64,000 nucleotides of DNA from Octopus vulgaris (taxonomy: Eukaryota). Position numbers and translations under genes: made by a program. The notes beneath the pieces are model-generated. The model searched no databases and was not told where the DNA came from. It saw only the letters and a list, made by a program, of their open reading frames with translations. Positions 16,083 to 53,225 of the stretch are shown piece by piece (the first letter of the stretch is position 1; each line of letters starts with the position of its first letter). The stretch spans positions 68,448,001 to 68,512,000 of the forward strand of contig OX597820.1 in NCBI GenBank assembly GCA_951406725.2, read 5' to 3'.

Positions 16083-16362
16083 TGTTGTGTAATATTTTAA
16101 TGCATTTTAATATTTTACTTTCAATTTCCATTTATTAATTATATTTTCTTTATTAATGACAATATGTATTTTAACCAAAGATTCGATGTAAGGTTTTTTC
16201 CTCGACTTTTATAATTTTATATATATTTTTTTTTTTGAGCTCATTTTTGTTTATCGCTCGAAATTGACCGTTATTTGAAAGAACCAATCAAACAAGTCCA
16301 TTTTTAAAGGTGTAGCGTTTATACTAGTCTTGATAGAATTGACATATCGGTTCTATTCTAGC

Positions 16363-16410
16363 AAAAACTGTCCGACGAACGGGAACGTGAAACTCAGAGT
16401 AACAGGTTTT
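16363..16410 (+). ncRNA. Putative minimal type I hammerhead ribozyme (U4C core variant)
   Basis: aaaaaCTGT-CCGACGA-ACG ggaa CGT-GAAA-CTC a GAG-TA-ACAGgtttt. All three stems pair, with a GUA cleavage triplet at 16399-16401. Confidence 0.75.
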
Positions 16411-16508
16411 GTTGAATTTTCTGCTGCTTTTAAATAAAGCATATTACTCTACCACTGGTATTTGAGTAATCTTTTTTCCACCTTGTTTCACATTTATGTG
16501 TTTACTCC

Positions 16509-21070: not shown

Positions 21071-21635
21071 ATTTAATCTGTCAAGTGGTAGAGTGGACAA
21101 AAGTTGTTTGTCTGTAGTCCATTTGCCGCATGGGTATGAACTGTAGGTAAGTATGTATGAAATCTTGTTCTCCACTAAATTCGTACATCAGTGTCATGCA
21201 AGTAAGAGTCACGAATGTGAGCAAAGTTTAGGTTTTTGGCTGAGTAAATAATTTCTTGCGCAAAAATATTGTCATATGACATTTAACACAGACGTAGCGA
21301 GGAACTTACAAACATGTCTAAGACTAACCACGTCATCATCCTTTGCCAGTAAAAATGTATCCTTTGCAGATACTAGTTTCAGCCATGTTCTATCCATAAA
21401 AAATAACGAGAGAATTTTCAAACTCCGGTCGAAAGCAATATAGTCGCGGCATAGCATCACGTCTTTGAACCTGATATAACTTTTCAAAATCCGCAACGTA
21501 TGTGTGACCGCAAAATATATGAACCAAAATAAAAGATTCTCAGTTCATTTTCAGCACCTTTCTTCTATATTTCTACCCGTGCAGAATAATATATATATAT
21601 ATATATGTAAATGTAATATGTGACAATTATTCGGT

Positions 21636-21706
21636 AGCCATGCTAAAACTCTGAGTTTCGGATGCCGAAGTGGAAATCCACGCGCTATCTCTTCAGTTAT
21701 CCGGCC
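21636..21706 (-). ncRNA. Putative type I hammerhead ribozyme
   Basis: The minus strand reads ggccggaTAA-CTGAAGA-GAT...(gtgga tt tccac)...ATCC-GAAA-CTC a GAG-TT-TTAgcatggct. It has a canonical core and the same stem III as the 16363 motif. Confidence 0.65.
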
Positions 21707-21809
21707 ATTGCAAACAATGCTATGAAAATTCGATTACATTTACAGGTAAATTCCTCTATTTACATAATGTCGAGGCCTCCTTCATTATTTTTTTGTCTTA
21801 CCATTTTTA

Positions 21810-21849
<40 letters not shown>

Positions 21850-34229: not shown

Positions 34230-35170
34230 AGTTCTAGTATTTGTGATACCGAAGTTTGGCACAAGTCTTTCCAGAATCTTCCAGATGTATATTATGGCAT
34301 ATCTTTCCCGCCGACGCTCTAAGGAATAGAGTCTTAATCTCTTGAGTCTTTCCCTGTAGCTTATATGCTGCATAGAGGCTAACTTCTTCGTGTAGCTTCG
34401 CTGGATTGCCTCAAGTTTTGAGATTAATTTGACACTGGTTGGAGACCATAGCTGAGAGCAATAGTCAAAGTGGATCAGGACAAATGTCCTCCAAGCGACC
34501 ATCAGGATTTCTTGACTTCTTGTTCTAAAAGTTCTAAGAATCCATCCGGTCAGCCGCCTGTATTTCATTGCCAATTTAGCAACATTCACATTGAAAGATG
34601 CATCATTATTCATGTAAATGCCCAGGTCTCGCACTGAATGTGCCTATGGGATTGCAATCCCTCCAGGCCCAGTGTATTTAATAGGTATTGCATTTAGTTT
34701 TGCATGCTGATAGCGCAAGGCTTGAAACTTTTCAGCATTAAACTTCATGCTGTTCTTTTCAGCCTACTTGTATATTTCATCCTGCTCACATAGCAGCTGC
34801 ATATTCTCTTCAGGATTCTGTATTACCTCTGAGACTTTTGTATCATCTGCATAACTTGTGATCGTAGCTCTCGGTGTGGCTAAGATAATGTCTGAGAGGG
34901 CAATTAAGAAGAGTAGTGGCCCCCAAAGAGTGCCTTGCAGAACACCGCTCAATATTTGCGTGTCATTATCTACTACTACCTGACATCTATCCTTCAGAAA
35001 GTCATGAAACCATTCTCCTAATTTTCCAACTATGCCGAGATCACGCAGTTTGTGACATATCATTCTATGATAGACTTTATCAAAGGCCTTTACAAAGTGG
35101 GGATATATCACTTCCACATTTGAGTGGTTGAGCAGTTGTTTCAGCACCCTGTCATAGTGTTGTAAGCGCT
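34230..35170 (-). mobile_element. Decayed CR1-clade LINE fragment (RT and C-terminal region), related to the 50449-53225 element
   Basis: Minus-strand ORFs 34764-35321 (KAFDKV, SYADDTKVS) and 34176-34634 (RDLGIYMNNDASF, FDYCSQLWS, YSLERRRERYAIIYIWKILE) align by eye with the plus-strand copy. Both ends lie in TA/CA microsatellite. Confidence 0.9.
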
Positions 35171-35183
35171 GAGTCTTATGTAT

Positions 35184-35237
<54 letters not shown>

Positions 35238-35343
35238 ATGTATGTGGGTGGGTGTGTATGTGTGTGTGTATGTATATATAATTATGTGTATATATGTATA
35301 TATGTATATATATATATGCATATAAATATATATATATGCATAT

Positions 35344-35395
<52 letters not shown>

Positions 35396-35661
35396 ATCAT
35401 ATACATATATATATGTATGTATGTATATGTATATATGTATATATGTATATATGTATATATATGTATATATATGCAAATATATATATATATATGTATATAT
35501 GTATATATATATGTATATGTATATACAGCTACATATGTTTATATATATAGGTATATATATGTGTATATGTATATATGTGCCTATATATGTATATATATGT
35601 ATATATATATGTGTGTATATACATGGATATATATTTGTGTGTATATATATGTATATATACG

Positions 35662-38010: not shown

Positions 38011-38433
38011 ACTAAATAATTTGAAACTTCGTATACTGGTAGAGTGTCTCAAAAGAAAACACTAGTTTCAACTTGTTTATTTGAGAAAAATGTATTTTAT
38101 AACTTTAAGGGTAGATTAAATCTGCGAATTTTAACCAATCGTATTGTTTGTTTTCATTTCAAATAATTAACTGCATTATCTTAGTGTGACGTAGAAAGCT
38201 ATTTTGTGACGTAGACAGCTGTGCGTAGGTCTGTGTTTTGTGTGCGTGTGTTTGATGGGGTGTGGGAGACAGAAAGTATGTTTTGTAAGTGAAGTACTTC
38301 TGTTAGTGTGTGTGAAGAGACAGAGAGTAATGTGTGAAAGAGAGAGATAACTGAAATTTTTTACTCGGTGTATGTGTATATGTATGTATGCATGTATGTG
38401 TGTGTGTGTATGTATCTATGTATGTGTGTGTGT

Positions 38434-38682
38434 GTATGTGTGTGTATGTATGTGTGTGTGTGTATGTATGTATGGCCGATTCAGTGTTTACATTATTTCG
38501 AGTTAAAACGAAAGATTACCAAAAGAATTTTGTCTATATCTTCGATCACTGTCATTATTCCATTGAGTCAACCTCATTATTTTCTACATAGCAAAGGTAA
38601 TCTTTCGTTTTAACTCGAAATAATGTAAACACTGAATCGGCCATACATACATACACACACACACATACATACACACACATAC
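38434..38682. repeat. Perfect 87-bp inverted repeat with 75-bp spacer
   Basis: 38434-38520 is the reverse complement of 38596-38682, including the microsatellite part. Confidence 0.95.
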
Positions 38683-40231
38683 GAAAGATTGTCAAAGATA
38701 AAAAGTTACAGAAATAAAAGTTACACGAATAAAGTAAGGAATAAAAATCACAAAAAATATACGAAAATTTACAAAAACTAATTTAGTTATATAATATATA
38801 AGTTTAATATATAAGTTAGTTAATAATATATAAAAAAAATGTGAATAGAAACTGAAAGTAACCGGGTGTTTACATTTCACGTATGTTAAATACGTCAGCA
38901 TACGTCTATTGAGACGGAGTAAATAATATGAAGCCGAAAGACCGAATATCATTGGTTAAAATTCTAATTATTAAACAACGTTAAACTTTGAAATTACAAT
39001 TCCGTTTTCATTCTGGTTTACAATTATGTTTTCTTTTGACACATTCTACCAGTATACGAAGTTTCAAATTGTTTGGTTAAGTAGGAAAAATCTGAAAAAA
39101 CAGGCCTTGGAAATGAAAAGATCCAAACTAAGCTACGAGCATTAGATTTCTTGGAAAAAGGATCGAATTTATACGAAACAAGGACAGAAAAACGGACGAT
39201 GCCACACGAATATAAATACAAAAAACAATAATAGTAATAACAGGACAAAAACAGCGGGTGTCTTACGACTTTAGACAGTTCAACTTAGCCTAGCTGGCGT
39301 ATTTGGAAAAAAATGCCTTTGCGGCAGACGAAGAAAACGATGTTGTCATGGCGGTGGTCAGAAGCCGAAAGGATAGTTGACCGGCGGTCACGTGAGAGGA
39401 GGAGAAGAGAGAGAAAAAAAAGGGGGCAAAGGAATCAAAGAGAGAGAGAAAAAGAGGGACAAAAGCACCAAAGGGGGGGGGGAGAAGAGAGAGAAAGAAG
39501 GTATTAAAGAGGGGAGAAGAAAGAGAGCGTGCCAAGGATTGGCTTGGCGACAGAATCAGTGAGGTGCAAAGTGAGAAAGACAGAGAAATGTGTTAGAGTG
39601 GGGAAGAGGAGACCAAAGAATCAGAGGCAAGAAAAGAGAAAGACAGAGACTAGTGAAGTATAGAGAAAGTATGTGTAGAAGTCGTACAAATGCTTACATA
39701 CATAAGGGAACAAGATGTACGTTACGCCGCAATATTATATGTATAAAAAATATATATAAAAATACAAAATGGGACAAGAACGCAATATATATATATATAT
39801 ATATATATAAATATATATATGTACATGTAAAAAAAACACAAACTGGGACAAGAACGCAAAACATTTAGAAGACGATACAAAATATACGCACGGGACATTC
39901 GAAGCCTTCGTGGTGTGTATTCGGTTTCCTTGTTTATCTCCACTGTCATGTTTTTGTTCCCAACTTTGACCCTCCATAAATCCTAAATTTTATTTTATAA
40001 TTTATGGGACCAAGTGTCTTTGAAGACTCTCATTGCTGTTAAATGCTCGAAATGAGGAGTAAATTGACAGCCAACTGATGAAGGATCCTTTTCCGTGTTA
40101 ACTTGTCCTGTTTTCCATTTTTTCTGTTTTTACAGAATTTATCTCGCTCCTACGTTTATTGATTAAACTATGACCAGTATCAGCGCTTATCACATTTGAA
40201 GAAATAAGTTTCATTACAGAAGGGTAGAGGA

Positions 40232-46099: not shown

Positions 46100-46414
46100 G
46101 GAATGATCAAGAAGGGAACCGAAAATTATATGAGAATGATCCCTGGTTTACCATCCCTGCAAGAAGTGCAAAAGATTGTCTTAACTGGTACATCACACGT
46201 ATTGAGAAGAGCATTGTCGATGTGAGAACTATTACTACCCATGTATTTTAATTTAACTTAAAAAAAAAAATGAACGAACTAGTGAGTTTAGTTTAATGGC
46301 TTACCAATGTATACTATGAGTTTCTTTGCCCTAGGAGTCGGGAAGACACTCGGCAAGAAATGGAAGCAAATTTGAAAGAAGAAAAAAAAAGATAATAATA
46401 ATAATAATAATAAT

Positions 46415-49563: not shown

Positions 49564-49822
49564 AGAAAGAGTGTGTGAGAGGAAATGTAAGGGTAGCATC
49601 TGAGAGCTTGACTCTTTATCAGATTAATTAGATGAAGTAACAACTGAATTATAAAAAAACAATGGAAGAATTTTTACGTGACATCTTATATATATATATA
49701 AGATGTCACGTAAAAATTCTTCCATTGTTTTTTTATAATTCAGTTGTTACTTCATCTAATTAATCTGATAAAGAGTCAAGCTCTCAGATGCTACCCTACA
49801 TTTCCTCTCACACACTCTTTCT
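49564..49822. repeat. 259-bp near-perfect palindrome centred on (TA)7
   Basis: Arms 49564-49693 and 49694-49822 are reverse complements except for a 1-nt indel. Confidence 0.95.
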
Positions 49823-50448: not shown

Positions 50449-53225
50449 TCAAATTGTACACATAAGACAACTGAATATCGTCATGTGCACTACATATCGC
50501 CCACCAGATGCCCCAAATCACCCAGGCATGTTTGAAGACTGCCTAACAAAAATAGAAGAAGTCCTCACCAAACCTGAACAACACAACAGTGTATTCTTCA
50601 TGGGTGACTTTAACTTCCCCAATGTGGAATGGCCTGGGGGGGCAGATGCTCTCAGGGATGACACACCATCAGCAGGCACAGGCAGAGTCCCTGCTCCATC
50701 TCACAAATACCTCTTTCATGGAGCAAATAGTTCTGCAACCAACAAGGGCAGATAATATACTGGATCTCTGCTTCACACACAATATGGATATTATCCATAA
50801 TGTTAAAGTGATGCCGACAATGATCTCAGATCACAACATAATAGAGCTGTCTATGTATGGGCCAAAAGCCCCCGTAGTCACACAGCCTATACGAAGCATC
50901 CACCATCTCTCCAACTTAAACTTTCATAAAGCAAACTGGAAGTTGATTGAGAAAGAGATCCTCAAACAGGATTAGCCTAAATGTCTCTCCACACCGGACA
51001 TTAACATGAAACACAAACACTTCATGTCCATAATACAAGCCATATGTGACAAATATGTCCCAGTGTACAGGGCCAGCACACACAAAAACAAAAACAGGAT
51101 CCCTAGAGAAAGGAGGATTCTTATGAGACGACGGACAATGATTGCGAACCGCCTGAGCAAGCACACCAAAAGTGGTGAGAAGTCTCGGCTCGAGAGAATG
51201 CTAATGGAAATTGAGAAAAATCTGCATCAATCCCATGAAAAGGAGAGAGCAGATAAAGAAGTTTGGGTAATATAAAATATAAAATCAAACCTTGAAGCTT
51301 TCTTTAAGTTTGCCAAAGAGACAGCCACAGTGCACCAGAGAATAGGACCTCTCTTCCAAAAAGATGGCTCTCTCACAGGAAATCCCACGAGGATAAGTGA
51401 AATACTGAACGAACAATTCCAAAGTGTGTTCACTACACCTCTGGGACACAGGCAAATAAACAACCCAGAAGAATTCTTTGCCACTTTACCTGCGGCCAAA
51501 GAGGCAAAAATTGAGTTCATTAACATTTAAGATGATGATATCACACTAGCCATAGATGAGATTGACACAAACTCAGCTGCTGGACCTGATGGATTTCCAG
51601 CGATCCTTCTCAGATCGTGCAAACGAGCCCGTGCAAAACCGCTACAGCTTCTTTTTCAGAGCTTCCTTGCAAGTGGTAAGCTCCCAGTCAAATTGAAAGA
51701 GGGGGTAATATGCCCTATCCATAAGGGAGGTAGCAGAGCAGATGCTAAAAATTATAGGCCTATCTCTCTGACCTCACACATCAGTAAAGTCATGGAACGA
51801 ATAGTCCGCAAGAAACTAATCATGTTCCTTGAAGAAAATGACTTGCTGTCTGACACCCAACATGGATTTCGACCAGGTAGAAGCTGCCTAACACAGCTCC
51901 TGCAACACCATGACTGGGTGTTAAAACAGCTACTAAATGGCTCAAATATGGATGTAATATATCTCGACTTTGCAAAAGCCTTTGATAAAGTCGACCATGG
52001 TATGATCTGTCACAAACTGCGTGGTCTCGGCATAGGCGGAAAACTTGGAGAGTGGCTGCACAACTTCCTAAAAGACAGAAGACAGGCAGTTGTGAGCAAT
52101 GGAGCTACCTCCAAGGAAACACAAATAACAAGCGGTGTTCCACAGGGTACTATCTTCGGGCCACTGCTGTTCATAGTGGCCCTTTCAGACATACCTTCAG
52201 TTTCTACGATGGCCACCCTTGCTTGCTATGCAGATGACACAAAAGTCTCCCACACAATACAAAACTCTGAAAATAGTGCGCATCTGCAACAGGAGTTGGA
52301 TAAAATATACAGGTGGGCGGCGGACAACAACATGCAGTTTAATGTAGGTAAGTTCCAGGCCCTGCGCTACCGGCACACAAAGGTAAACGACGTGCAGACT
52401 GGATACACTGGCCCAGGAAGAATTGCAATCCCTGAGTCAAAATCAGTGCGTGACCTAGGCATTGACATGAGCAATGATGCATCTTTCCAAGTGCATATTA
52501 CTAATCTGGTGATAAAATGCAGACGGCTAGCTGGATAGATTCTCCGAACTTTCAGAACAAGAGAGAAGGAGACACTGATGGTCCTCTGGAAAACATTCGT
52601 CCTCAGCCGCTTGGACTACTGCTCCCAACTATGGTCAGCACACAATATAAAAATAACAGCAGAACTCGAAGAAATTCAGAGAAGCTACACAAAGAAGATC
52701 GTCTCAATGCAACTTATCAGCTACTGGGAAATACTGAAAGTATTAAACCTCTTCTCCCTAGAGCGGAGGCGGGAGAGATATGCGGTGATCTACATCTAGA
52801 AAATCCTGGAGGGTCTTGTCCCAAACTTTGGCATTCAAAGTTACCCCAACCGCAGAAAGGGGCGCCACTGCATGGTGCCAAAGATCCAACATCACCATCA
52901 AAATACAGGACCAGATACTGCAACAGCTTGGGTTTCAGAGGACCACAGCTCTTTAACATCCTCCCTAAATGCCTAAGAGACTTACTTGATGTGGATGTGG
53001 GTTTCTTTGAAACTAAACTGGATCTCTTCTTGTTGGGAGTCCCAGATGAACCTACCTCACGACAGGAGACGCAGATGCGGGCAGCAGCATCGAACTCCCT
53101 TGTTGATCAAGTGCCACGTATCAGAGGTGGATTCACATATTAGTGTAGCTCATTCAGCGGTGGTGCCCTAGCATGGCCGCAGCCTTCGGGCTAAAACATT
53201 TTTAAGGATTTTTTTTTAAAGGATT
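50449..53225 (+). mobile_element. 5'-truncated CR1-clade non-LTR retrotransposon (ORF2 APE endonuclease + reverse transcriptase), disabled by stops and frameshifts
   Basis: Endonuclease motifs YRPP, MGDFNFP, ILDLCFT and SDHNII (50490-50845). RT motifs NYRPISLTS, QHGFRPGRSC, YLDFAKAFDKV, SGVPQG and YADDTK (ORF 51693-52538). C-terminal RLDYCSQLWS and SLERRRER. In-frame stops near 50973, 51273, 51528, 52536 and 52797. The 3' tail carries a hairpin, and both ends abut (TA)n. Confidence 0.93.

What the first reader, a model, noticed from the sequence alone, without database searches (positions are those of the whole stretch)
21600..21730. Second hammerhead on the minus strand shares helix III (GAAACTCAGAGT) with the 16363 motif but has unrelated stems I and II
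Seen: the minus strand has a canonical CTGAAGA core, a long stem II carrying a GTGGA/TCCAC hairpin, and GAAACTCAGAGT identical to 16389-16400. About 35 nt later it runs into (TA)n. Inference: two different short-element families keep the same helix III. This could allow hetero-dimeric trans-cleavage between families, since helix III is the dimerisation interface of minimal hammerheads.
Basis: partly seen in the sequence, partly recalled or inferred. Interest (0 to 1): 0.75.

Follow-up and report, generated by a model that had tools for sequence, protein, structure and literature searches.

The report
Penelope transposon hammerheads share one palindrome
The motif is a worn end fragment of a known kind of jumping gene (a Hydra-clade Penelope-like element) that likely cuts its own RNA as a same-family pair; a second family carries the same short palindrome, but the two are predicted not to cut each other because their other pairing arms do not match.

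Summary
The 12-mer occurs 18,499 times in the genome (control 311), and 13,155 copies lie behind a hammerhead core. Both window motifs are 3' pseudo-LTR fragments, inserted in (TA)n, of two autonomous Hydra-clade Penelope-like retrotransposon families (A, B; proteins 42% identical), not short-element families. Only the arms ACTC/GAGT are shared; the centre base varies within both families. The identical 12-mer is already tabulated for a Hydra element in a 2021 supplement, and other families in this genome use other palindromes. Hetero-cleavage is poorly supported. By topology, each core of a double hammerhead also needs helix I (or II) between the two units. A and B form 0 helix-I pairs at the junction (predicted probability at most 0.001, against 0.60-0.98 for intact A or B homodimers), and no A/B chimera was found beside 19,266 pure junctions. 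Full-length B copies carry two hammerheads in cis. The window copy is decayed. Cleavage is untested. This scan reported such hammerheads before on other DNA of this genome. New member of a known kind.

The parts
21615..21728 (-). 5'-truncated 3' end (pseudo-LTR fragment) of family B Hydra-clade Penelope-like element, holding the hammerhead
   Evidence: blastn to full-length B1, 83% over 115 nt, and to an older B copy
21741..21812 (+). Inverted fragment of the same element's extreme 3' end (tail present at one end only)
   Evidence: blastn to B1 positions 2538-2630, 85%; inverted 5'-truncated copy and one-sided tail described in PMC8557442
21697..21708 (-). Helix I, 5' strand (GATAA next to the core)
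21690..21696 (-). Core CUGAAGA (C3-A9), intact
21660..21689 (-). Stem II; in this copy one substitution and a 1-nt deletion weaken it (-7.4 against -14.9 kcal/mol in a B2 copy)
21648..21659 (-). GAAA plus palindromic helix III ACTC-A-GAGT (the shared 12-mer)
21646..21647 (-). Predicted cleavage site after U17 (GUU); inferred, not tested
   Evidence: hammerhead numbering applied
21635..21646 (-). Helix I, 3' strand; TTAGC instead of the family's TTATC, leaving 3 contiguous pairs
21589..21606 (.). (TA)n target tract, one side
21813..21846 (.). (TA)n target tract, other side
16191..16444 (+). 3' end fragment of family A Hydra-clade element, between (TA)n tracts, holding the 16363 hammerhead
   Evidence: blastn to A1, 81% over 276 nt
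16363..16410 (+). Family A hammerhead: helix I CTGT/ACAG, core CCGACGA (16372-16378), 3-bp stem II with GGAA loop, same helix III (16392-16400)

Best explanation
The motif is a decayed pseudo-LTR fragment of a Hydra-clade Penelope-like retrotransposon (family B) inserted in a (TA)n tract, and its minimal type-I hammerhead likely works in intact elements as a same-family double hammerhead that would cut the tandem transcript into unit lengths. Shown: family membership, copy number, two hammerheads 2,589 nt apart in full-length copies, stem II and helix I pairing across subfamilies, decay of this copy. Inferred: the two cis copies pair through the palindromic helix III and both helices I. Family A shares the helix III arms most likely by descent (or by drawing on a small set of palindromes), while helix I has diverged and keeps the families apart, so an A-B pair would be a non-cutting duplex.
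For: EN/RT ORFs upstream of both hammerhead types; B ORF of 717 aa with RWK, DKT, CxCx5C, CxxC and CxH, the Hydra diagnostics of PMC8557442 section 11; all 150 scored EN hits 100% identical in protein, so B1 is young; 2 of the 4 fetched full-ORF B copies have two direct hammerheads (L141 1404/3993, L144 1376/3954); 88% of cells paired and 9 of 26 pairs with two-sided change in 24 B copies, against 35-48% for slid controls; identical 12-mer in Penelope-3_HM and ACTC-N-GAGT in 5 of 25 Hydra-clade families; compensated palindromes in other families here: ACCA/ACCC/ACCT in H subfamilies, ACGATCGT/ACAATTGT in Z; A-B helix I 0 pairs both ways, inter-unit helix I probability <=0.001 against 0.60-0.98 for intact A and B homodimers; chimeras 0 and 0 against 8,736 B/B and 10,530 A/A; dimer cleavage of PLE hammerheads reported in PMC4209133.
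Against: No cleavage, RNA end or strand data: only contigs of runs guessed to be RNA. The cofold model also fails to predict the family C homodimer (probability 0.001), so it is a rough guide. Descent of the arms is not proven: A+B as a clade is rejected (p-AU 0.009), A+B+C is not rejected (0.144), the best tree puts B with X and H, which carry other palindromes, and the tree is unrooted. Tree rows were stitched from tblastn pieces using A as query for C and B for X and H, which may bias the grouping. Pfam gave no family for either ORF at E<=0.1. Outer helix III pairs in alignment A1 are fixed by my selection pattern. PMC4209133 reports only low in vitro activity for such motifs.
Confidence: 0.85

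Rival explanations
1. One reading: A and B hammerheads form hetero-dimers through the shared helix III and cleave each other in trans.
For: Helix III hetero-duplex predicted as stable as the homoduplex (-7.4 kcal/mol; pair probability 0.96-1.0 within an A-B dimer). Both families are abundant. The B 5' stem-II arm can make 3 pairs with the older A 3' arm.
Against: The first helix I pair at the junction is impossible in both directions; probability <=0.001. The stem-II-exchange route would have to melt B's own stem II (-14.9 kcal/mol) for 3 pairs; this route is pseudoknotted and was not folded. 0 chimeras, although cleavage without re-ligation would leave none.
Confidence: 0.04
2. The arms are shared by convergence: only two base pairs of the palindrome are free, so unrelated families often land on the same one.
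For: 16 possible arms; 100 of 600 ordered family pairs (17%) in the published Hydra table share arms (my count); ACCA-N-TGGT recurs in several families here with different stems (judged by eye); arms changed quickly among H subfamilies; A+B clade rejected.
Against: A, B and C all carry ACTC, and retention needs only two changes (Z; X+H) on the six-family tree; ACTC also occurs in cnidarian and echinoderm Hydra elements.
Confidence: 0.3
3. The shared arms let A and B RNAs form non-cutting duplexes that compete with homodimers, a decoy effect between families.
For: The A-B helix III duplex is predicted without helix I; thousands of truncated copies exist.
Against: An interrupted 8-bp duplex in trans competes with a cis partner that adds two helices I; A-B dimers are about 5-6 kcal/mol worse than the two homodimers together; no expression data.
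Confidence: 0.06

Closest known systems
Hydra-clade Penelope-like elements and their hammerheads (Craig et al. 2021, PMC8557442; seen: passages, section 11, supplement search and part 2 of 59 with Files S1 and S2)
   Same: RWK, DKT, CxCx5C linker, CxxC and CxH motifs, single ORF, under 3 kb, (TA)n targets, inverted 5'-truncated copies with a one-sided tail, hammerhead in the pLTR; Penelope-3_HM has the same 12-mer.
   Different: Families A, B, C, H, X and Z match no hammerhead row of File S2 that I saw; the one octopus entry (Hydra-1_oBim) has ACCA-A-TGGT and matches another family here.
Minimal type-I hammerheads of metazoan PLEs (Cervera and de la Pena 2014, PMC4209133; read parts 1-2 of 4)
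   Same: Short helix I, palindromic helix III, extra nucleotide beside stem II, many families per genome, opposite-strand pairs 100-700 bp apart, presumed dimer action.
   Different: Helix III is a 4+1+4 palindrome, longer than the minimal form; U4C core variant in the youngest B subfamily; cross-family sharing is not discussed in the parts read.
PLE hammerheads that cleave as dimers (Lunse et al., PMC5785218; not held, seen only as a title and as summarised in passages of PMC6765202 and PMC6466107)
   Same: Palindromic stem III and tandem arrangement needed for dimer cleavage.
   Different: I could not see whether heterodimers were tested there.
Non-LTR retrozymes (PMC7229834; passages)
   Same: Type-I hammerheads in animal repeats; some act as dimers.
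   Different: Retrozymes are non-coding 170-400 nt tandem units; A and B encode RT and EN.

Membership tests
Hydra-clade PLE (family B) | Single ORF, RT then C-terminal GIY-YIG-type EN, element under 3 kb | tested here: met
   717-aa frame, 2,589-nt unit; domains read from motifs, Pfam gave no hit
Hydra-clade PLE (family B) | N-terminal RWK and DKT motifs | tested here: met
   RMRWKA and SDKTKN in L141; definition
Hydra-clade PLE (family B) | CxCX5C linker; CxxC and CxH around E and N | tested here: met
   CSCRNKELC, CGLC, CPH
Hydra-clade PLE (family B) | (TA)n insertion, pLTR tandem and inverted truncated copies | tested here: met
Hydra-clade PLE (family B) | Placement with reference Hydra RTs in a tree | not tested
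   reference proteins were not obtained; the trees hold only this genome's families
Hydra-clade PLE (family A) | EN motifs and homology to B | tested here: met
   42% identity over 501 aa, CxxC and CxH present, second linker Cys is F in the copies read
Hydra-clade PLE (family A) | RWK and DKT motifs | not tested
   only 5'-truncated A ORFs (up to 507 aa) were fetched
Minimal type-I hammerhead | Core CUGANGA, GAAA, UH in type-I order | tested here: met
Minimal type-I hammerhead | Helices I and II supported by variation | tested here: met
   family level; this copy is weakened
Minimal type-I hammerhead | Palindromic helix III | tested here: met
Minimal type-I hammerhead | Self-cleavage as a dimer | not testable with these tools
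   no raw RNA reads offered
Non-LTR retrozyme / non-coding short element | Non-coding 170-400 nt tandem monomer | tested here: not met
   both families have coding parents
Productive A-B hetero double hammerhead | Inter-unit helix I (or II) besides helix III | tested here: not met
   computed only

The most novel reading that the evidence does not exclude
Penelope-like families sharing one genome use a two-part address (helix III palindrome class plus helix I sequence) that is kept orthogonal by selection, and families in the same helix III class interfere with each other's RNA processing through non-cutting duplexes, or, for C on B, weak one-way trans-cleavage. That would be ribozyme-mediated competition between transposon families.
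Probability: 0.07. Interest if true: 0.6.

Novelty: new member of a known kind. Interest (0 to 1): 0.17.

Why it matters
As it most likely stands it is ordinary: one more set of Hydra-clade Penelope hammerheads, and this copy is decayed. Two side results are useful. Family B1 is young, with intact ORFs and two cis hammerheads, so it is a good natural substrate for testing what PLE hammerheads do, which PMC8557442 calls unclear. And this genome offers a panel of natural helix III and helix I combinations for testing dimer specificity. If cross-family interference were real, it would be a new way for transposons to interact.

Tried and rejected
Rfam: only microsatellite-driven miRNA hits among the 150 of 268 rows listed for the window, none at 21600-21790. 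Single-strand folding is no better than shuffles, as expected for a dimer-type motif. The one-mismatch 12-mer at 46313-46324 has no CUGANGA core upstream: not a hammerhead. Pfam: no family for either ORF. Pattern CYGANGA..GAAACMRNYKGT was not enriched over its control (1,282 against 1,225), so it was used only to see families, not as a count. Family X: no clean hammerhead in 30 loci with my first descriptor; its palindrome (about ACCAATTGGT) rests on two worn copies. No EN was found beside the G, I, K, N, ACTT and ACAC families, so they are not on the tree. Expression: no RNA holder listed on record; contigs of four runs guessed to be RNA cover the B1 element but show no molecule ends; no evidence either way. 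The careful 32-row tree did not finish; an 18-row LG+G4 tree did. Lunse et al. could not be read. Four paper searches listed no paper whose title or abstract start deals with cross-family hammerhead heterodimers in PLEs; the library is incomplete and 58 of the 59 parts of the Craig supplement were only searched, not read.

Full report
Observation. The minus strand reads helix I 5' arm (21708-21697), CTGAAGA (21696-21690), a 30-nt stem II region, GAAACTCAGAGT (21659-21648), T, then TTAGCATGGCTA, with (TA)n about 41 nt after the 12-mer. The same 12-mer is at 16389-16400. The genome (2.8 Gb) holds 18,499 exact copies against 311 for the control, and 13,155 of them have CYGANGA 8-38 nt upstream, control 0. 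Of the first 30 loci, 15 belong to the 16363 family (A), 11 to the 21650 family (B) and 4 to a third family (C) (sorted by eye). The organism is likely an octopus: one family here differs by one letter from the Hydra-1_oBim hammerhead (inference).

What the families are. Upstream of both hammerhead types lie endonuclease-coding frames. Full-length B has a 717-aa frame with RWK, DKT, CxCx5C, CxxC and CxH, the diagnostics of Hydra-clade Penelope-like elements (PMC8557442 section 11). Two of the four full-ORF copies fetched carry two direct hammerheads, 2,589 and 2,578 nt apart. All 150 scored hits of the B endonuclease were 100% identical, so B1 is young. A is 42% identical to B over 501 aa. The window copy is a roughly 200-nt insert between two (TA)n tracts: a 5'-truncated 3' end (21615-21728, minus) plus an inverted piece with the tail (21741-21812, plus), the arrangement described for PLE insertions. 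No PLE protein is encoded in the window.

Structure. In 24 B-type copies (23 of the 24 picked for diversity from 51 distinct ones, one deletion copy dropped, the window copy added) 88% of cells pair and 9 of 26 pairs change on both sides, against 35-48% for slid controls; the shuffled control is close (86%) because copies are related. The window copy has a helix I substitution (3 contiguous pairs against 5-6) and a weakened stem II (-7.4 against -14.9 kcal/mol); its homodimer helix I probability is 0.13. It is likely a dead copy.

What is shared. Seven of the twelve letters are hammerhead consensus. A further 6,271 core-linked copies have C, G or T at the centre. In the window-B subfamily the centre is G 49, A 49, T 1, C 1 of the first 100 listed, and in the window-A subfamily T 41, A 27, C 24, with 8 arm variants (both hand counts). 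Part of this may be CpG decay (inference). Family C has the full 12-mer in 22 of 26 copies. The conserved thing is thus two base pairs, with a free centre, as expected if the centre is a mismatch in a dimer. Other families use other palindromes, with compensated changes between close subfamilies: ACCA, ACCC, ACCT arms in H and ACGATCGT/ACAATTGT in Z. In the published Hydra table ACTC-N-GAGT occurs in 5 of 25 families, Penelope-3_HM has the identical 12-mer, and 17% of family pairs share arms (my count). On EN-region trees B groups with X and H (98/98), not with A; A+B is rejected (p-AU 0.009) and A+B+C is not (0.144). Retention from an ancestor needs two changes on this tree; convergence remains possible. 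Rows were the best-covered copies, stitched from tblastn pieces, so the tree is provisional.

Hetero-dimer test. PLE hammerheads with short palindromic helix III are reported to act as dimers. By topology (my inference), when helix III forms between units, A15.1 of unit 1 pairs with U16.1 of unit 2, so the cut site and the 3' strand of helix I in that core come from unit 2 and must pair with the 5' strand of unit 1; the alternative is to exchange stem II. A and B make 0 helix I pairs at the junction in both directions, while each of 16 copies tested makes 3-8 with itself. Cofolding gives inter-unit helix I probabilities of 0.88-0.98 (A-A), 0.60-0.67 (intact B-B) and at most 0.001 (A-B), while the A-B helix III duplex forms at 0.96-1.0. 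The same model misses the C homodimer (0.001), which limits its weight. C as enzyme on B makes 3-4 wobble-rich pairs (+1.8 kcal/mol), the only cross-family pair with a full helix III half and at least 3 helix I pairs in that table. Genome-wide there are 0 B/A and 0 A/B junctions across the palindrome against 8,736 B/B and 10,530 A/A: no trace of ligation or template switching there, though this does not exclude cleavage alone.

Mechanism committed to (0.85). Intact elements are transcribed through both pLTRs; the two identical hammerheads likely pair through helix III and both helices I and would cut unit-length RNA for retrotransposition into (TA)n. Helix I acts as the family-specific part. 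Cleavage is untested; the RNA data offered were contigs only.

Comparison and verdict. It is a member of the Hydra clade by motifs (tree with reference elements not run) and works like the minimal PLE hammerheads of PMC4209133. Earlier notes of this scan reached the same class for other copies in this genome; my reading was fixed before I saw them. New member of a known kind; interest 0.17.

Noticed in passing
L141:1366-1416 and other B1 copies; families C, I, N: The youngest, ORF-intact B subfamily has the core variant CCGAAGA (U4C) while older B subfamilies have CTGAAGA; the older A subfamily also has C4.
   Followed up: partly
L266:2900-4700 (G000:C1:22621412-22623148): Four head-to-tail units of about 562 nt, each with a family G hammerhead (ACAG-G-CTGT), preceded by an inverted fragment; looks like a rolling tandem insertion or a retrozyme-like unit.
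   Followed up: partly
L414:2507-5611: Family Z Hydra-type ORF with long Asn-rich inserts between RT and EN, a roughly 58-nt stem II and 8-nt palindromes.
   Followed up: partly
L062-L089: Family D hammerhead with a loopless ACGT helix III dominates the first 100 rows (14,203 matches, control 4,388); parent element not identified.
   Followed up: no
G000:C1:149487387-149487440: A hammerhead-like match with a compact stem II unlike the PLE families.
   Followed up: no
window 51531-53143 (+) and 34764-35396 (-): Frames resembling a non-LTR retrotransposon reverse transcriptase, broken by a frameshift (by eye, not searched).
   Followed up: no
window 38431-38685 and 49589-49798: Long inverted repeats between microsatellites that score as miRNA hairpins below threshold; possibly other inverted PLE-type insertions.
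   Followed up: no
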